From NCBI RefSeq assembly GCF_057098645.1, contig NZ_CM169472.1: a stretch of 64,000 nucleotides of DNA. The stretch is one strand, 5' to 3'. The translations under genes and the position numbers were made by a program. Under the pieces are notes generated by a model. The model was not told the origin of the DNA, did not search any database, and saw only the letters and a program-made list of their open reading frames with translations. Position 1 is the first letter of the stretch. Each line of letters opens with the position of its first letter. Positions 22,626 to 31,291 of this stretch are shown in pieces.

Positions 22626-23336
22626 TGCCAGTTGTGGTTGCACAACTTCGTGGCTTAACGGCTTGCTGACCACGTAACGACCATTGACCACAGAAACGGT
22701 CGGTGGCTTACGGGTTTGCTCAAAGTAGTCGTAACCCGGCTTCAGTTGCTCCCAGAAGTCCTTAAAGTTGGAATATTTATGGCGCTTCATATTAGCGTCG
22801 GTCATGCGGAACGGGTAAATGCTCACCTGCACGCTCGGCTGACCAAATACCAGCGCGCCAGTAACGAACTGGAAGATCTCGTCAATGCCCTGATTGGTCA
22901 TCGCGTAGCAGCCGATGGAAACACAATCGCCGTGGATCATCAGGTATTTCCCTTCATAACCATGCGCACGGTCATAGGCGTTAGGAAAACCAATATTAAT
23001 CGCTTTGTAGTAACGGCTATCTGGTTTTAACTGATTACGCTGGACACTATAAAACCCTTCCGGACTTTTGAAATCGCCCTGACGTTGTTTCGGACCTAAC
23101 CCGCCGGAATATTTACAGATTTTATAGCTGTCGAGCAGCTGATATTGCTCGCCCATTTTGACGTAGAGATCGAGCGTACGTTCTTCCTTGAAGATCTGGA
23201 TGTAGACAGGGGATCCCATCAACTGCTGCTTATACTCTTTGCTCACTGGCGTGGTAGAGCTACTGCTGCCCAGCAAACCGGCAAATGAAACGCACGGGAC
23301 CAACAACATCGCAAGAATTAATGCGATTTTACGCAT
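22596..23336 (-). CDS. yafK: L,D-transpeptidase family periplasmic protein
   Basis: 246-aa ORF with signal peptide and YkuD-like HGxxxxxxC signature ([10 protein letters not shown]). Confidence 0.85.
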
Positions 23337-23648
23337 ACTGCTTATTCCTTGATAAAACGGTTACACACGCCAGGACGGCAAAATGGATCCCAAATCGGAA
23401 TAGTCTGGATTTGGAAGGCTCACATTATCACCAAAAGAGTTTTACGCAAGCCTGTCGGAGCAGGGTTTACAAATTTAGCATAAGTAGCGATTTTCAAAAG
23501 TCCGAAAAGCGCATGTAAAACGGATTTATTTCTTATTTCCTAAGATTATGAAACCTCGATAGTAATATGCAAATAAGCAATTAATAATCCCGCTTCTCCT
23601 TTCTGTCCCCTAATATTCTCATCTTCATTCAGCCGGTTTATATCTTCC

Positions 23649-24398
23649 ATGTATTTGTTCTCTCACGACAGATTGCTGCGCCTGGGCGTGTTTTCTTTGC
23701 CCCTTTTGCTTCCTTTACTCGCCAGCGCCGCCACACCGCACATCTCCCTCAGCTACGCCGCCCGCCAGCGGATGCAAAACCGTGCGCGGGTACTCAAACT
23801 GTACCAGGCACATCTGAAAAAACAGGCCAGCTATATTGTGGAAGGCAATGCCGAAAGCAGACGGGCGCTGCGCCAGCACAACCGTGAGCAGATAAAACAG
23901 CACCCGGAGTGGTTTCCTGGCCCGCTGAAATTGAGCGACCGACGCTGGCAGGCGCTGGCGGAAAACAATCACTTTTTAAGCAGCGATCACCTGCATAATA
24001 TTACCGAAGTGGCGATCCACCGCCTGGAGCAGCAGCTTGGCAAGCCTTACGTCTGGGGCGGCACGCGGCCCGATAAAGGCTTCGACTGTAGTGGGTTGGT
24101 TTTTTATGCCTACAACAAGATCCTCGAGGCGAAGCTCCCGCGCACGGCCAATGAGATGTATCACTACTATCGGGCAACAATTGTGGCGAACAACGACCTG
24201 CGCCGGGGAGATTTGCTGTTTTTCCATATCCACAGCCGCGAAATTGCCGATCATATGGGCGTGTATCTGGGCGATGGGCAATTTATCGAGTCGCCACGCA
24301 CCGGGGAAACCATTCGGGTAAGCCAGTTAGCTGAACCTTTCTGGCAGGACCATTTTTTGGGCGCGCGCAGGATTTTGACGGAAGAGACGATTTTGTAA
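23649..24398 (+). CDS. yafL: NlpC/P60 family peptidoglycan endopeptidase
   Basis: 249-aa ORF with signal peptide and NlpC/P60 Cys-His core (DCSGLV...H). Confidence 0.85.
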   Translation: MYLFSHDRLLRLGVFSLPLLLPLLASAATPHISLSYAARQRMQNRARVLKLYQAHLKKQASYIVEGNAESRRALRQHNREQIKQHPEWFPGPLKLSDRRWQALAENNHFLSSDHLHNITEVAIHRLEQQLGKPYVWGGTRPDKGFDCSGLVFYAYNKILEAKLPRTANEMYHYYRATIVANNDLRRGDLLFFHIHSREIADHMGVYLGDGQFIESPRTGETIRVSQLAEPFWQDHFLGARRILTEETIL

Positions 24399-24454
24399 AT
24401 GGGTAATATTGACGAACTGGCAAAAGGCCGGATGCCACACGGCATCCGACTTGT

Positions 24455-24811
24455 TTACATCTGGGCTGAAAACTCACGTTCTAAGACATCAACAATGAGC
24501 TGGTTTTTTGAAATGGAATGTTGTCTGGCGACGATGGTCAGCCGCGAATCAATGTGATGAGGAACACGAAGCGTCAGGCGTTTTTGCTCTTCTTCTTCAC
24601 GAAAAGGGGCAATACCGTCCTCTTCACAATCCGCCATCCACTCATCCAGCGCGCTTTCGCCCTCACGATATAATGCCTCAATGCTTGTGGCTACAAAGTC
24701 ACAATAACCGTTTACATTGAGGAATTTGCCGCGAAATGCATTGATATCGGCTTCAAATGTCACTGCGGCTGGTTGACCTTTAATTGTGATAATGTTCGAT
24801 GCTTTATTCAT
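24455..24811 (-). CDS. HicB-like antitoxin (N-terminal HicB fold, C-terminal ribbon-helix-helix)
   Basis: 118-aa ORF; C-terminus RLTLRVPHHIDSRLTIVARQHSISKNQLIVDVLEREF resembles an RHH DNA-binding domain; 8-nt overlap with the upstream ORF. Confidence 0.55.
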   Translation of the reverse strand: MNKASNIITIKGQPAAVTFEADINAFRGKFLNVNGYCDFVATSIEALYREGESALDEWMADCEEDGIAPFREEEEQKRLTLRVPHHIDSRLTIVARQHSISKNQLIVDVLEREFSAQM

Positions 24812-25103
24812 AATCTACCCCTACACAGTTAACAAACCACTCCTTAAGACCTGCTACTGCGCCTTTATCCATCACATTCTTTGGATGTGGCTCATGTGTA
24901 CTGAATTTGGTCGTTCCAATCTGAAATTTCCTTCTGGACCCATTGTTATTTTTTATTGTTCCACCCGCCGCTTTAATGAGCGCAACAACATCATCCCATT
25001 TAATTCCAGATTTTGGCGGCTCCGTCATTACATCGTCGAATGTTTTTCTATGGCGGGAGCCTAGCGCGCTGACCTTAATCATACTATCAATCCATGACAT
25101 CAT
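24804..25103 (-). CDS. HicA-like (YcfA family) putative mRNA-interferase toxin
   Basis: 99-aa ORF (true start may be internal; MTEPPKSG... gives 74 aa); GSRRKF...THEPHP...GLKEW resembles HicA; translationally coupled to the downstream ORF. Confidence 0.45.
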   Translation of the reverse strand: MMSWIDSMIKVSALGSRHRKTFDDVMTEPPKSGIKWDDVVALIKAAGGTIKNNNGSRRKFQIGTTKFSTHEPHPKNVMDKGAVAGLKEWFVNCVGVDYE

Positions 25104-25186
25104 TGTATGGTGTCATCGTAGTATGTTTGCAATGTGACGTCAATCAATGGTGTCAGATGCATGCAAAGCATGGAAAAGAATCCCCA

Positions 25187-26959
25187 TCAACTCACTGCCC
25201 CCATAATCTTCAACTCCAGCTCATCCGGCACTTCGTTATACGACAGCACATGCAGCCCCGGCGCAAACAACCTTGCATAGCGAGCCAGCAAAGGGCGCAG
25301 CTGCGGCGGCACCAGCAGTACCGGGTCTTTCCCCGCCGCTTTCATCTGCTCTTTTACCTGCGGCATCGTGCTCTGGAACTGGTTGAGCATATTCGGGTCG
25401 ACCGGCACGCTGTCGAGCATCACTTTGCCGCCCTGTTGCGCCTGATTCACCACGTTGGTCAGCAGATTTTCCAGCTCATTATTCAGCATATACACCGTAA
25501 GCTCCTGCTTGCGAACGAACGGATGGGTAATGCTGCGCCGCAGCGCCAGGCGTACATCGGCTGCCAGCAGAATGTGATCTTTAGTCACCGTGCTACTGGC
25601 GACCAGCACGGTGGCGATGGTGACGATATCGCGCAGGGAAACGCCTTCGGTCAGCAGCGCACGGTACACTTTCAGCAACTGGCTGTAATTCAGCGCCGCG
25701 CTCAAATCCTCCGCCAGGCGCGGTGCCATCGACGACAGGCGGTTATGCAACTGTGTGATGTCATCATAGTTAAACAAATCAGGAATATAGCTGCGCACAA
25801 TCTTGTTTACATGGGTGGCAATCACGCTGGCGCTGTCGATTACCTGATACCCCATATTCAGCGCCTTCGCTTTCTGCGCGGGCTGGATCCAGGTCACCGG
25901 CATCCCGTACGCCGGGTCGTTCCCCAGCACGCCGTCTATCTCGCCGTAGGTTTCGCTGGAGGGCAGGGCCATCAGTTTATCCGCCGGAATATCCGCTTCA
26001 TCGGCCTTAATGCCGTTGATGAAAATAGCGTACTGGCTGGGCTTGAGGCGGAAATTTTCCCGAATGCGGATCTCCGGCAGCAGCACGCCGTTGCCGTCAG
26101 AAATCACCTGCCTCACGCCGCGAATCCGCTGGGTGAGTGGGTTGCCCTGCGCTTTATCGACCAGCGCTACTAGCTTGTAGCCAAGGCTTAAACTGATAGG
26201 CTCGATAAGCGGAATGGTTTCCCAACTGACCTGTTGCTCGCTGGTTTCAGTGATAGTGCGGGTCAGCGTTTCGAGGCTTTTCTCTTCCGCCTCCGCCGCC
26301 TGCGGGCGTTTGCTCATCCGCCAGCCGGTAAAACCCAGTAGGGCGCTGAACAGCAAAAACGGCAGGTGCGGCATCCCCGGCACCACTGCCAGCACGAACA
26401 TGATCCCAGTGGCGGTGTAGAGTACCGTCGGGCTTGCCAGCAGCTGGTGGCGCACGTCATGGGCGATATCGCCGTTATCGCTGACGCGGGTGACGATTAT
26501 CGCCGCCGCGGTGGAGAGCAGGAGGGAAGGGATCTGCGCCACCAGGCCGTCGCCGATGGTCATCAGCACATACTGCTGGAAGGCGGCATCGGCGCTCAGG
26601 TTGTATTTGAAGATCCCGATACAGACGCCGCCGATCAGGTTGATCGCCAGAATCATCATCCCGGCGATGGCGTCCCCGCGCACAAACTTAGATGCCCCGT
26701 CCATTGCGCCGTAGAAATCGGCCTCGCTGGCAACATCTTTACGCCGGGTTTGCGCCTGCGCCTGGTTGATCAACCCGGCGTTAAGATCGGCGTCAATCGC
26801 CATCTGCTTGCCGGGCATCGCGTCCAGGGTAAAGCGGGCAGAAACCTCGGAAATACGCTCGGCCCCTTTGGTGACGACGATAAAGTTGATTGTCAACAGC
26901 GTCAGTAAATCCGAGCGCGAAAGTATTATTGCCGCGCTGCACGGGCAGTCGATTTTCAA
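25187..26959 (-). pseudogene. lfhA: FlhA-like lateral-flagellar (Flag-2) export gene remnant, N-terminally truncated
   Basis: 590-aa ORF matching FlhA from ...VVTKGAERISEVSARFTLDAMPGKQM onward; N-terminal transmembrane region missing. Confidence 0.8.
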
Positions 26960-27726: not shown

Positions 27727-28782
27727 ATGCGTAAAATCATTCATGTGGATATGGACTGCTTTTTCGCAGCGGTGGAGATGCGCGACAATCCCGCCCTGCG
27801 CGATATCCCTATTGCTATTGGCGGTAGCCGCGAACGTCGGGGGGTGATCAGCACCGCCAATTATCCCGCGCGTAAATTTGGCGTACGTAGCGCTATGCCG
27901 ACAGGGATGGCGCTCAAATTATGCCCACATCTCACCTTGCTTCCGGGGCGCTTTGACGCCTACAAAGAAGCCTCAAATCATATCCGTGAAATCTTCTCGC
28001 GCTACACCTCGCGTATTGAACCGTTGTCACTGGATGAGGCTTATCTCGATGTCACCGATAGCGTCCATTGCCACGGTTCTGCGACCCTCATCGCCCAGGA
28101 AATCCGCCAGACGATCTTCAACGAGCTGCAACTGACGGCATCTGCGGGCGTGGCACCAGTAAAGTTTCTCGCCAAAATCGCCTCCGACATGAATAAACCC
28201 AACGGCCAGTTTGTGATTACGCCGGCAGAAGTTCCGGCATTTTTACAAACCTTACCACTGGCAAAAATCCCCGGCGTCGGCAAAGTCTCGGCGGCAAAAC
28301 TGGAAGCGATGGGGCTGCGGACCTGCGGTGATGTACAAAAGTGTGATCTGGTGATACTGCTTAAACGCTTTGGCAAATTTGGCCGCATTTTGTGGGAGCG
28401 TAGTCAGGGGATTGACGAACGCGATGTTAACAGCGAACGGTTGCGAAAATCCGTCGGCGTGGAACGCACGATGGCGGAAGATATTCATCACTGGTCTGAA
28501 TGTGAGGCGATTATCGAGCGGCTGTATCCGGAACTTGAACGCCGTCTGGCAAAGGTGAAACCTGATTTACTGATTGCTCGCCAGGGGGTGAAATTAAAGT
28601 TCGACGATTTTCAGCAAACCACCCAGGAGCACGTCTGGCCGCGGCTGAATAAAGCTGATCTAATCGCCACCGCGCGTAAAACCTGGGATGAACGCCGCGG
28701 CGGGCGCGGTGTGCGACTGGTGGGGCTGCATGTGACGTTGCTGGATCCGCAAATGGAAAGACAACTGGTGCTGGGATTATGA
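27727..28782 (+). CDS. dinB: DNA polymerase IV (Y-family translesion polymerase)
   Basis: 351-aa ORF starting [33 protein letters not shown]. Confidence 0.95.
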
Positions 28783-29231
28783 ATAACATACAAATAAGAA
28801 ACTATCAGCCTGGCGATTTTCAGCAACTATGCGCTATTTTCATTAGAGCGGTTACGATGACCGCCAGTCAGCATTATTCACCACAACAAATTGCCGCCTG
28901 GGCGCAGATTGACGAATCTCGCTGGAAGGAGAAACTCGCGAAATCACAAGTGCGGGTTGCAGTCATTAATGCACAACCGGTTGGTTTTATTTCCCGCATT
29001 GAACATTATATCGATATGTTATTTGTTGACCCTGAATACACCCGCCGTGGGGTTGCCAGCGCTTTGTTAAAACCTTTGATTAAGTCTGAATCCGAACTTA
29101 CGGTGGACGCAAGCATAACCGCAAAACCCTTTTTTGAACGTTATGGTTTTCAGACAGTTAAGCAGCAGCGCGTTGAATGCCGGGGCGCGTGGTTTATTAA
29201 TTTTTATATGCGTTATAAACCGCAACATTAA
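28779..29231 (+). CDS. yafP: GNAT-family N-acetyltransferase
   Basis: 150-aa ORF; start overlaps the dinB stop (ATGA). Confidence 0.85.
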
Positions 29232-29536: not shown

Positions 29537-30067
29537 ATGGAATGGTACATGGGCAAATATATTCGTCCCTTATCCGATGCGGTATTTACCATCGCATCTG
29601 ATGACCTGTGGATCGAGAGTTTAGCGATCCAACAATTACACACCACGGCAAATTTACCCAACATGCAGCGCGTAGTGGGGATGCCAGATTTACACCCCGG
29701 ACGCGGCTACCCGATTGGCGCAGCGTTCTTCTCCGCAGGCCGTTTTTACCCAGCACTGGTCGGCAATGATATCGGCTGTGGCATGGCGCTATGGCAAACA
29801 GATATTCTCGCTCGCAAATACAACGCCGATAAGTTTGAAAAGCGATTATCAGCTTTGGATGACGTTGCTGAAGAAAGCTGGCTGGAGGAAAACCTGCCGT
29901 CAGCATTTGCACAGCATCCGTGGCGCAGCTCGCTTGGCTCTATCGGTGGCGGCAATCATTTCGCTGAACTGCAACAAGTTGATCAAATCATCAACGCTGA
30001 ACTGTTTGCACTGGCAGGTCTGGATGCGCAGCATCTGCAACTGCTGGTTCATAGCGGCTCGAGGGGG
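29537..30067 (+). pseudogene. RtcB-family RNA ligase (PrfH-coupled), 5' fragment interrupted by an IS element
   Basis: 187-aa ORF with RtcB-like motifs (GMPDLHPGRGYPIGAAF, GGGNHFAELQ, HSGSRG); reading frame broken by the insertion. Confidence 0.8.
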
Positions 30068-30094
30068 GGTGCCCCTATTAAGTTGTCAAGCATG

Positions 30095-31291
30095 TTATGA
30101 CGCCTGCGGGGTATAAAAAGTCCCGTCGCGCATCATGGCGAACAGAACGTCGCAGCGTCGTCTCGCCAGGGCGATAAGCGCCTGATTGTGTCGTTTTCCC
30201 TGACTCATTTTGCGGGTGTAGTAAGCCCTGGAGAGCGGATCCCTGAGCGCGGCGAAGGCCGACAGGAACAACGCCCGTTTGAGAGCTTTATTACCCCGTC
30301 GCGAGGGATGCTCACCGCGTATTGACGAGCCGGATCGCCGAGTTACCGGCGCAAGGCCAGCATAAGCAGCGAGATGTGCGGCAGAGGCGAAGGCGCGGCA
30401 GGCGACCTCGGTGAGGAGTCTGGCTGCGGTCCTGACACCGACTCCGGGCATACTGGTCAGGACCGGGTAAAGAGGGTGAGCAAGAACTCGCTGTTCTACC
30501 TCAAGCACCACCTCGTCTCTTTGCTTACGCAGCGTGATGAGCTGGAGTGCCAGACGTGGCAGTACTACGGCAGCGGCATTCGTGCCGGGAACGACGACGG
30601 TTTGTTCGGCCAGTGCCTGAGCTATGTCTGCTGCAAGGCGTTTACCCAGACGAGGCGCAAGTTTGCAGAGCTGGGCTGCCAGCTTCTTCTCACCCAGCGA
30701 AGCGAGTTTTTCTGGTGAGGGATATCGCTGGAGAAGATCGAGTACCGCCGGGTGATCAAGTCTCGGACCGAGAACGCGCTCCAGTGCCGGATGTATCTGG
30801 GTCAGAAGGCCGCGGATACGGTTGCTGGCCTGCGTTGTCTGTGCGGCAAGATCATCATCGAAGCCGCAGAGCATGGAGAGTTCGGCGATTTGCTCGTCAG
30901 CCAGTTTCAGCGTGCGTAGCGCGTGAGGCAGGGTACGGGCAGCTTCGGCAATGATGGCAGCGTCACGAGCATCAGTTTTAGCTTCACCGGCGTGTAAGTC
31001 GGCTATGCGGCGCATGGCCAGTCCAGGGAGGTATCCGACAAGGACTCCTTCTGAGCGGGCAACGGCGACAGGTAACGCACCGATGGTAGCTGGCTGATCA
31101 ACAACCAGCAGTATCTGACCATGTTGTTTCAGGTCAGATATTAGCGACCTGAGTTTGTTTTCGTCGTTGGGTAATGCTTTATCGAACAGGCGTTTACCTG
31201 AACGATTAATGGCTACAGCGTGATGCGTATCTTTACCGACATCAACGCCGATAAAGACCTGGACGGATTCGTAATCGCTGGATTCGGTCAT
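30095..31291 (-). CDS. IS110-family DEDD transposase/recombinase
   Basis: N-terminal IGVDVGKDTHHAV (RuvC-like DEDD) and C-terminal MPGVGVRTAARLL...AYAGLAPVTRRSGSS...GNKALKRAL motifs. Confidence 0.88.
   Translation of the reverse strand: MTESSDYESVQVFIGVDVGKDTHHAVAINRSGKRLFDKALPNDENKLRSLISDLKQHGQILLVVDQPATIGALPVAVARSEGVLVGYLPGLAMRRIADLHAGEAKTDARDAAIIAEAARTLPHALRTLKLADEQIAELSMLCGFDDDLAAQTTQASNRIRGLLTQIHPALERVLGPRLDHPAVLDLLQRYPSPEKLASLGEKKLAAQLCKLAPRLGKRLAADIAQALAEQTVVVPGTNAAAVVLPRLALQLITLRKQRDEVVLEVEQRVLAHPLYPVLTSMPGVGVRTAARLLTEVACRAFASAAHLAAYAGLAPVTRRSGSSIRGEHPSRRGNKALKRALFLSAFAALRDPLSRAYYTRKMSQGKRHNQALIALARRRCDVLFAMMRDGTFYTPQAS

What the first reader, a model, noticed from the sequence alone, without database searches (positions are those of the whole stretch)
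24455..25103. HicA/HicB-like toxin-antitoxin pair between yafL and the Flag-2 scar
Two small minus-strand ORFs overlap by 8 nt. The upstream one (99 aa, possibly 74 aa from an internal start) has a HicA/YcfA-like pattern; the downstream one (118 aa) has a HicB-like N-terminus and a ribbon-helix-helix-like C-terminus. From memory, K-12 has rayT (yafM) at this position. Conversely, the yafQ-dinJ module I would expect between yafK and yafL is absent, so toxin-antitoxin content at this locus appears to be strain-variable.
Basis: partly seen in the sequence, partly recalled or inferred. Interest (0 to 1): 0.6.

Follow-up and report, generated by a model that had tools for sequence, protein, structure and literature searches.

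The report
Known HicAB toxin-antitoxin pair in E. coli
The two small overlapping genes are a HicA/HicB-type toxin-antitoxin cassette that replaces the rayT transposase gene in about a quarter of E. coli strains; this was published in 2012 and is annotated in RefSeq, so the finding is correct but ordinary, apart from an untested, unusual active site in the toxin.

Summary
Two minus-strand genes overlap by 8 nt: hicB-like at 24455-24811 (118 aa) and hicA-like at 24804-25082 (92 aa; the 99-aa ORF is an upstream extension).

Evidence for the family:
- Pfam matches both proteins (HicA_toxin E=4.8e-7; HicB E=4.1e-10).
- AlphaFold2 models match solved HicA and HicB structures.
- The long-HicA plus RHH-HicB pairing recurs in distant relatives.
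- Both genes are under strong purifying selection.

The window is E. coli (100% identical to O145 RM9872). RefSeq already names both genes. The pair occurs in 1370 of 5426 complete genomes, always at this locus. Another 109 genomes keep hicB alone and none keeps hicA alone.

K-12 carries rayT here, and the window also lacks dinJ-yafQ and yafNO. The rayT-to-hicAB replacement was published by Ton-Hoang et al. in 2012, and strain-variable toxin-antitoxin content in E. coli is established. Verdict: already known, low interest.

One point is not covered in the papers I found. This toxin belongs to a long-form HicA clade in which the catalytic His of every characterised HicA is an Arg ("GSR"), and a clade-specific H-x-P-H-P motif is nearly invariant. 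Its toxicity and RNase activity are therefore inferred, not shown.

The parts
24804..25082 (-). hicA-like toxin gene, 92 aa. The maximal ORF extends to 25103 (99 aa). It belongs to the long-form HicA clade: N-terminal helix (residues 9-18), then an alpha-beta-beta-beta-alpha core, with G48-S49-R50 and H63-x-P65-H66-P67.
   Evidence: ORF. PGAP coordinates. Pfam HicA_toxin E=4.8e-7. phrog_8887 'toxin' at 5e-20. Homolog start codons. AF2 pLDDT 96.6. Foldseek top hits are HicA 6G26, 1WHZ and 6HPB. The profile matches 6G26/4C26 at E=0.003.
24455..24811 (-). hicB-like antitoxin gene, 118 aa. [quoted passage not shown] A GGGG Shine-Dalgarno sequence lies inside the 3' end of hicA.
   Evidence: ORF. 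Pfam HicB PF05534 E=4.1e-10. phrog_9151 'HicB-like antitoxin' at 4e-13 and Arc-like repressor at 6e-5. AF2 pLDDT 86. Foldseek matches 6G26_A, 4P7D_A, 2DSY, 6U0I and 1B28 (Arc). Sequence.
25115..25143 (-). sigma-70-like promoter, TTGACG - 17 nt - TACGAT, 33 nt upstream of the 92-aa start codon
   Evidence: 9 of 12 matches. The same -35 TTGACG and 17-nt spacing occur upstream of a 65%-identical homolog in L006. This is a consensus match only; function is inferred.
25094..25143 (.). Cluster of three operator-like 10-bp palindromic sites related to ATGACGTCAT, at 25094-25103, 25107-25116 and 25134-25143. They overlap the -35 hexamer, the -10 hexamer and the predicted transcription start, and are candidate HicB binding sites.
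   Evidence: Inverted repeat. The motif was taken from the homolog locus L006, which has four copies. Three of the 40 window-wide matches (at most 2 mismatches) fall within these 50 bp. Binding is not tested.
24429..24448 (.). GC-rich hairpin (8-bp stem, 4-nt loop) between the convergent yafL and hicB genes; a probable bidirectional terminator
24399..25196 (.). The whole variable cassette relative to K-12. It starts directly after the yafL stop codon and ends within the last codons of the lfhA (flhA) fragment. GC is 44.5%, against 55-58% in the flanking genes.
   Evidence: Alignment breakpoints. Composition.

Best explanation
This is a horizontally acquired, self-contained type II toxin-antitoxin operon of the classical hicAB kind. 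In Gerdes' scheme it is 'Class 4': toxin gene first, and a HicB with a C-terminal RHH domain.

Proposed mechanism, with each step marked as shown or inferred:
- A sigma-70 promoter drives a bicistronic hicA-hicB transcript (inferred from a consensus match).
- hicA has a weak ribosome-binding site. hicB has a strong one embedded in the end of hicA, and the two genes overlap by 8 nt, so the antitoxin should be made in excess (inferred from the sequence).
- HicB dimerises through its RHH domain and represses the promoter at ATGACGTCAT-like palindromes (inferred).
- HicB's N-terminal partial RNase H-like domain covers and neutralises HicA (inferred by homology to 6G26, 4P78 and 6HPB).
- Free HicA, a dsRBD-fold protein, most likely arrests growth by binding and cleaving RNA independently of the ribosome (inferred by homology only).

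The toxin belongs to a long-form clade (84-92 aa). In this clade the catalytic His of characterised HicAs is replaced by Arg (R50), and two clade-specific or clade-fixed histidines (H63 and H66, in H-x-P-H-P) are nearly invariant. Catalysis, if it occurs, probably uses a rearranged site.

At the population level the cassette is one of several alternative occupants of the yafL-lfhA interval. The others are the rayT REPtron, an empty site, and hicB alone.
For: Family and fold:
- Pfam matches for both proteins and PHROGs toxin and HicB-like matches.
- Confident AF2 models whose best PDB matches are HicA and HicB chains.
- The deep family profile finds B. pseudomallei HicA at E=0.003 and Y. pestis HicA3.

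Conserved operon architecture:
- A long HicA is followed by an overlapping PF05534 HicB in a 65%-identical relative and in a 38%-identical one, in unrelated contexts.

Selection:
- hicA shows 11 synonymous and 1 non-synonymous differences, and hicB 5 and 0, between alleles.
- G48, S49, H63, P65 and H66 are each present in at least 72 of the 76 aligned sequences of the family (H63 142/146 and H66 143/145 in the larger set).

Dependency asymmetry:
- hicA is present in 1370 genomes, the same number that carry the full pair.
- 109 genomes have hicB without hicA, and none has hicA alone.
- In the hicB-only allele the toxin domain is cleanly deleted, and hicB is fused in frame to the first ~7 hicA codons.
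- Truncated or frameshifted hicA alleles exist.

Regulation and origin:
- Promoter and clustered palindromes.
- Foreign base composition.

Prior annotation and publication as hicA/hicB.
Against: - No member of this long-form clade has been tested for toxicity or RNase activity in anything I found.
- The residue essential in every characterised HicA (His24 of B. pseudomallei and N. gonorrhoeae HicA, His28 of Y. pestis HicA3, His23 of E. coli HicA, His36 of S. pneumoniae HicA) is Arg here. It is His in 0 of 76 and 1 of 150 family members.
- In N. gonorrhoeae HicA the His equivalent to H66 was dispensable.
- NCBIfam and PADLOC gave no match, and single-sequence searches of the PDB found nothing.
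- The hicB-only state probably stems from one or a few ancestral deletions, so the asymmetry argument rests on few independent events.
- The promoter and operator are consensus matches only.
Confidence: 0.72

Rival explanations
1. The pair is a true HicAB homolog, but the toxin is catalytically inert or strongly attenuated because the catalytic His is lost. The cassette would then persist as a harmless selfish remnant, or HicA would act only as an RNA-binding or regulatory partner of the HicB repressor.
For: R50 aligns with the catalytic His of three solved HicAs. His at that position is essentially absent from the clade. Every mutagenesis study reviewed found that His essential. hicA-inactivated and hicA-deleted alleles circulate.
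Against: An inert protein would not keep a dN/dS of about 0.03. It would also not keep G48, S49, H63, P65 and H66 in at least 72 of 76 sequences across representatives that share only 25-41% identity with it. The one family member that has the canonical GSH lacks both H63 and H66, which points to substitution of catalytic residues rather than loss. hicA never occurs without hicB in 5426 genomes.
Confidence: 0.15
2. The module's biological role is anti-phage defence by abortive infection rather than stress response or genomic addiction. This concerns the role, not the mechanism, and is compatible with the best explanation.
For: Gerdes' survey proposes a defence role for HicA domains in general. 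Relatives are carried by Ralstonia and Burkholderia phages and by plasmids, and have PHROG families. The cassette sits in a hypervariable interval where other mobile modules swap in and out.
Against: There is no PADLOC match. No recognisable defence genes flank it in the window; the neighbours are yafL, the lfhA remnant, lafU and dinB. No phage data exist for this pair.
Confidence: 0.25
3. The two ORFs are not an autonomous module. Instead they are the 3' end of the Flag-2 flhA (lfhA) operon, or chance ORFs in a scar region.
For: They lie 104 nt downstream of lfhA on the same strand. In strains with an intact Flag-2 flhA the arrangement is the same.
Against: They have their own promoter-like site and a terminator hairpin. 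Their GC3 is 0.40-0.42 against 0.75 for lfhA. The pair occurs with unrelated neighbours in other taxa. K-12 has rayT in its place with the same flanks. Purifying selection is strong.
Confidence: 0.03

Closest known systems
Burkholderia pseudomallei HicAB (PDB 6G26, 4C26); classical hicAB with RHH-type HicB (Gerdes Class 4)
   Same: Toxin gene first, then the antitoxin. HicA has the dsRBD alpha-beta-beta-beta-alpha core, with the G-S motif and the P-H-P motif. HicB has a partial RNase H-like N-domain plus a C-terminal RHH. It is the best sequence-profile and Foldseek match for both proteins.
   Different: B. pseudomallei HicA is about 60 aa and needs His24. The window protein is 92 aa with an extra conserved N-terminal helix, has Arg at the His24 position, and has an additional near-invariant His (H63) where B. 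pseudomallei HicA has Thr. Sequence identity is only about 18%.
E. coli K-12 HicAB (hicA/yncN-hicB/ydcQ; PDB 6HPB)
   Same: Same superfamily and gene order, and the same host species. The HicA fold matches (6HPB_A, TM 0.64 on the target).
   Different: K-12 HicB uses an HTH domain, not an RHH. K-12 HicA is 58 aa with catalytic His23. It sits at a different chromosomal locus. No similarity is detectable by plain sequence search.
Yersinia pestis HicA3-HicB3 (PDB 4P78, 4P7D)
   Same: RHH-type HicB. The family profile matches HicA3 weakly and the HicB model matches HicB3.
   Different: The catalytic His28 of HicA3 aligns with Arg here. HicA3 has Tyr where this clade has H66.
hicA-hicB between yafL and fhiA in B1-clade E. 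coli such as IAI1 (Ton-Hoang et al. 2012, PMC3333891)
   Same: This is the same thing: the same genes at the same locus, described as replacing tnpA_REP (rayT) and its BIMEs.
   Different: Nothing differs in identity. That paper did not analyse the proteins, the hicB-only allele or the active-site substitution.
rayT (yafM, tnpA_REP) REPtron of E. coli K-12
   Same: It occupies exactly the same interval, from the yafL stop codon to the last codons of lfhA.
   Different: It is an unrelated gene (a HUH Y1 transposase flanked by REP/BIME repeats) on the opposite strand, present in 3575 of 5426 genomes against 1370 for hicAB.

Membership tests
HicA toxin family (Pfam PF07927 / COG1724) | Significant match to the HicA_toxin profile | tested here: met
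   E=4.8e-7, 30.2 bits, model positions 1-50 of 58. Precomputed PF07927 hits on homologs. A deep family profile finds PDB HicA 6G26/4C26 at E=0.003. No NCBIfam model matches.
HicA toxin family (Pfam PF07927 / COG1724) | dsRBD-like alpha-beta-beta-beta-alpha fold | tested here: met
   AF2 pLDDT 96.6 with H29-38, E42-45, E50-55, E58-63 and H73-87, plus an extra helix at 9-18. Foldseek's top hits are HicA chains 6G26_E/F (TM 0.61-0.64 on the target), 1WHZ, 6HPB_A and 4C26, although the E-values are weak for so small a domain.
HicA toxin family (Pfam PF07927 / COG1724) | Catalytic His in the G-S-H motif at the start of beta2 (His24 B. pseudomallei/N. gonorrhoeae, His28 Y. pestis, His23 E. coli, His36 S. 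pneumoniae), essential in all characterised members | tested here: not met
   The window has G48-S49-R50-R51. HMMER aligns R50 with His24 (mutated to Ala) of 6G26/4C26, with His28 of 4P78_C, and with the His of 9SVK. At this position the clade has Arg in 58 of 76 and His in 0 of 76, and Arg in 124 of 150 and His in 1 of 150. By homology the protein belongs to the HicA superfamily, but it is not a canonical His-dependent HicA.
HicA toxin family (Pfam PF07927 / COG1724) | Growth arrest on expression, RNase activity, and neutralisation by the cognate HicB | not testable with these tools
   Indirect support only: purifying selection, and hicA never found without hicB in 5426 genomes.
HicB antitoxin family, RHH type | Match to a HicB profile | tested here: met
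   Pfam PF05534 E=4.1e-10 over residues 60-110. phrog_9151 'HicB-like antitoxin' at 4e-13 over residues 6-114.
HicB antitoxin family, RHH type | N-terminal partial RNase H-like fold | tested here: met
   The AF2 model has four strands followed by a long helix (44-65), with pLDDT above 90 in that region. Foldseek probabilities are 0.94-1.0 for 6G26_A/B, 4P7D_A, 4P78_A and 2DSY_D. No Pfam HicB_lk_antitox hit and no sequence-level PDB hit.
HicB antitoxin family, RHH type | C-terminal ribbon-helix-helix DNA-binding domain | tested here: met
   Arc-like repressor PHROG at 6e-5 over residues 72-115. Profile hits to AmrZ (0.015), Arc and MazE7. Foldseek match to Arc 1B28 at TM 0.68 on the target, rmsd 1.8. 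The conserved strand LTLRV is followed by two helices.
HicB antitoxin family, RHH type | Autorepression through palindromic operators in the hicAB promoter | tested here: inconclusive
   Three ATGACGTCAT-like sites cluster over the promoter. The same motif recurs four times upstream of a 65%-identical homolog. A 38%-identical homolog has a different repeated motif in the same place. There are no binding data.
Type II toxin-antitoxin operon (classical hicAB, Gerdes Class 4) | Bicistronic, toxin gene upstream, genes closely linked or overlapping, and the arrangement conserved across relatives | tested here: met
   8-nt overlap in the window. Overlaps of 8 and 4 nt in L006 and L007-L009. Class definitions.

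The most novel reading that the evidence does not exclude
The long-form HicA clade has several hundred representatives at the 50%-identity cluster level, found on chromosomes, plasmids and phages. It has replaced the canonical catalytic His with Arg and fixed a new His pair (H63 and H66 in H-x-P-H-P) that should lie next to it on the sheet. If so, these toxins cleave RNA through a rewired active site, possibly with a different substrate specificity or a non-nucleolytic activity. That has not been described or tested, and the E. coli B1 pair would be a convenient model for it.
Probability: 0.4. Interest if true: 0.4.

Novelty: already known. Interest (0 to 1): 0.17.

Why it matters
For genome annotation it matters little. 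The pair is already named in RefSeq, and its exchange with rayT was described in 2012. It is one more example of toxin-antitoxin cassettes moving in and out of a recombination-prone E. coli interval. In about 10 kb, K-12 has dinJ-yafQ, rayT and yafNO, while this strain has none of them and carries hicAB instead.

The one point of wider use concerns the toxin. A large, widely annotated group of 'HicA family toxins' lacks the residue on which all mechanistic knowledge of HicA rests. The automatic label 'mRNA interferase-type toxin' is therefore an extrapolation for this clade. A simple kill/rescue and mutagenesis experiment on this E. coli pair would settle the question.

Tried and rejected
- NCBIfam gave only noise for both proteins (NepR and YlcI at E~0.1), so PGAP's names cannot come from a matching NCBIfam HMM.
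- PADLOC had no defence-system model for either protein.
- Single-sequence phmmer against the PDB found nothing relevant for either protein. A narrow 13-sequence profile found only spurious TIR-domain hits. HicA structures appeared only with the 76-sequence profile.
- Rfam found nothing in 23300-25400 on either strand.
- I considered a linker-fused HicA-HicB complex model. I dropped it because model coordinates cannot be read back, so the interface and the distances between R50, H63 and H66 could not be measured.
- I considered a genome-contig scan for taxonomic range. I dropped it as costly and unable to change the verdict.
- I checked whether the characterised IncI2 mcr-1 plasmid HicAB is of this clade. 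Only 5 Escherichia plasmid records match, so it is not.
- I rejected the 74-aa and 99-aa forms of the toxin.
- I rejected the idea that hicAB presence is tied to the Flag-2 deletion or to the absence of dinJ-yafQ. Strain 2013C-4538 has hicAB together with dinJ-yafQ and a full-length flhA.

Full report
**Observation**

The ORF list shows two minus-strand ORFs: 24455..24811 (118 aa) and 24804..25103 (99 aa). They share 24804-24811, which is 8 nt.

The true start of the upstream gene is most likely the ATG at 25082, giving 92 aa:
- Every homolog begins at MIKV.
- PGAP uses this start.
- The ATG at 25103 lies only a few bases after the predicted transcription start.
- The 74-aa internal start would delete a conserved, confidently modelled helix.

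**Source and prior knowledge**

The window is E. coli. The region is 100% identical to O145 strain RM9872. RefSeq annotates the two genes there as 'type II toxin-antitoxin system HicA family toxin' and 'HicB family antitoxin'. They sit between yafL (a C40 peptidase) and an N-terminally truncated Flag-2 flhA, followed by lafU.

Ton-Hoang et al. 2012 (PMC3333891) already reported counts for 110 E. coli/Shigella genomes:
- 24, almost all in clade B1, carry hicA-hicB between yafL and fhiA in place of tnpA_REP (rayT) and its BIMEs.
- 74 carry tnpA_REP.
- 7 B2 strains show a precise excision.

Fraikin et al. 2020 (PMC7167474) document the patchy distribution of toxin-antitoxin systems among E. coli strains. 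This includes intact dinB-yafP operons in strains that lack yafNO.

**Population picture in 5426 complete genomes**

| State or gene | Genomes |
|---|---|
| Full hicAB pair, one copy, same locus | 1370 |
| hicA on its own query | 1370 |
| hicB without hicA | 109 |
| hicA without hicB | 0 |
| rayT | 3575 |
| dinJ-yafQ | 3340 |

In the hicB-only allele, the first ~7 hicA codons are fused in frame to hicB and the toxin domain is gone. Truncated and frameshifted hicA products also occur in the databases.

Comparison with K-12:
- The cassette (24399-25196) begins right after the yafL stop codon and ends in the last codons of lfhA. This is exactly where K-12 has rayT and its REP repeats.
- The window also lacks dinJ-yafQ. 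In its place are 244 bp of unrelated AT-rich sequence at 23477-23720.
- It also lacks yafNO, and dinB overlaps yafP by 4 nt.
- hicAB is not tied to these absences or to the Flag-2 deletion. Strain 2013C-4538 has hicAB together with dinJ-yafQ and a full-length flhA.

The cassette has 44.5% GC. GC3 is 0.40 for hicA and 0.42 for hicB, against 0.75 for lfhA. This indicates horizontal acquisition.

**The antitoxin**

- Pfam HicB (PF05534) matches residues 60-110 at E=4.1e-10.
- PHROGs gives 'HicB-like antitoxin' at 4e-13 over nearly the whole protein, and an Arc-like repressor at 6e-5 over residues 72-115.
- A 28-sequence family profile finds the RHH proteins AmrZ, Arc and MazE7.
- The AF2 model (pLDDT 86) shows four strands, a long helix, a linker, and two helices that follow the LTLRV strand.
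- Foldseek's best PDB matches are B. pseudomallei HicB, Y. pestis HicB3, TTHA0281, E. coli HicB3 and Arc.

This is an RHH-type HicB, which corresponds to Class 4 in Gerdes' classification.

**The toxin**

- Pfam HicA_toxin matches at E=4.8e-7, and phrog_8887 'toxin' at 5e-20.
- An exhaustive profile search finds 636 representatives at the 50%-identity cluster level.
- These form a long-form clade of 84-92 aa. Its consensus is KHxKTLxxIFxxPxxxxIxWxD..L..ALGA......GSR....L.......HxPHP..E..KGAV...R.FL...GV.P.
- The AF2 model is very confident (pLDDT 96.6). It shows an extra N-terminal helix and then the alpha-beta-beta-beta-alpha dsRBD core.
- The top Foldseek hits are HicA chains 6G26, 1WHZ, 6HPB and 4C26.
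- The clade profile finds B. pseudomallei HicA at E=0.003, and more weakly Y. pestis HicA3 and 9SVK.

In all three of those alignments, the clade's Arg (R50 in the window) sits on the catalytic His. This His is His24 in B. pseudomallei and His28 in Y. pestis. Mutagenesis found it essential in every HicA studied.

| Position | 76-sequence set | 150-sequence set |
|---|---|---|
| 50 (catalytic His in canonical HicA) | Arg 58, His 0 | Arg 124, His 1 |
| H63 | 72 of 76 | 142 of 146 |
| H66 | 75 of 76 | 143 of 145 |

Further points on these residues:
- H66 corresponds to His40 of the N. gonorrhoeae and B. pseudomallei proteins. That residue is described as close in space to His24 but dispensable.
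- H63 is Thr in the canonical proteins.
- The single clade member with a canonical G-S-H lacks both H63 and H66.

I read this as a rearranged active site rather than a dead one, but that is an inference. I found no paper that addresses it.

**Selection and architecture**

Between two alleles that differ by ~3%, hicA has 11 synonymous and 1 non-synonymous changes, and hicB has 5 and 0. A long HicA followed by an overlapping PF05534 HicB recurs in a 65%-identical relative and in a 38%-identical one. The genomic contexts are unrelated, and one is on a plasmid-like contig. Relatives also occur on plasmids of Salmonella, Piscirickettsia, rhizobia and Deinococcus, and in Ralstonia and Burkholderia phages.

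**Regulation (inferred)**

- A TTGACG-17-TACGAT promoter lies at 25143-25115.
- Three ATGACGTCAT-like palindromes cluster within 25094-25143, out of only 40 matches in the whole 64 kb.
- The same motif occurs four times around an equivalent promoter in the 65%-identical homolog. A more distant homolog has a different repeat in the same place.
- hicB has a GGGG ribosome-binding site inside hicA, while hicA's own site is weak.
- A GC-rich hairpin at 24429-24448 separates hicB from the convergent yafL.
- No Rfam family matches the region.

**Verdict**

The finding is already annotated and published, so it rates as already known and of low interest.

The one loose end is the non-canonical active site of this long-form HicA clade. 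It means the toxin's RNase activity and toxicity are extrapolations that have never been tested for any member I could find.

Noticed in passing
window 28776-28782 (dinB 27727-28782, yafP 28779-29231): The yafN-yafO toxin-antitoxin pair that K-12 carries between dinB and yafP is absent. dinB and yafP overlap by 4 nt and form an undisturbed operon. This state is known in the literature, for example in UTI89.
   Followed up: partly
window 23477-23720: Where K-12 has yafQ-dinJ, its promoter and the 5' end of yafL, the window has 244 bp of unrelated AT-rich sequence (intergenic GC 0.39). The rest of yafL is only 91.7% identical to K-12, against 97-98% for the flanks. This suggests a recombined, divergent segment.
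   Followed up: partly
L002 3340-3420 (E. coli AR_0372) and L005: In the hicB-only allele (109 of 5426 genomes), the first ~7 codons of hicA (ATGATGAAAACGCGTTTATTA) are fused in frame to hicB, about 55 bp upstream of the promoter are also missing, and PGAP calls an ATA start. This looks like a clean natural deletion of the toxin that keeps the antitoxin expressed.
   Followed up: partly
L004 (E. coli 2013C-4538): This strain combines hicAB with dinJ-yafQ and a full-length Flag-2 flhA. The modules of this interval therefore assort independently of each other and of the Flag-2 deletion.
   Followed up: no
P0200 versus the other 149 long-form HicA representatives: The only family member with the canonical G-S-H motif lacks both the H63 and H66 histidines (it has PAPKK instead of HxPHP). 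This is an anecdotal sign that the two His arrangements are alternatives.
   Followed up: no
window ~29549-31290 (from the RM9872 annotation, L001 11250-12991): Downstream of yafP the reference annotation shows a truncated RtcB-family gene interrupted by, or abutting, an ISEc20 (IS110-like) transposase. K-12 instead has rtcB and prfH pseudogene fragments there.
   Followed up: no
L007-L009 (metagenome contigs of about 100 kb): A 38%-identical long-HicA/HicB pair sits on plasmid- or phage-plasmid-like contigs beside a StbA/ParM-like (Alp7A) partition gene. A different repeated motif (GGTATCAC / GATACTA) lies upstream of hicA.
   Followed up: no
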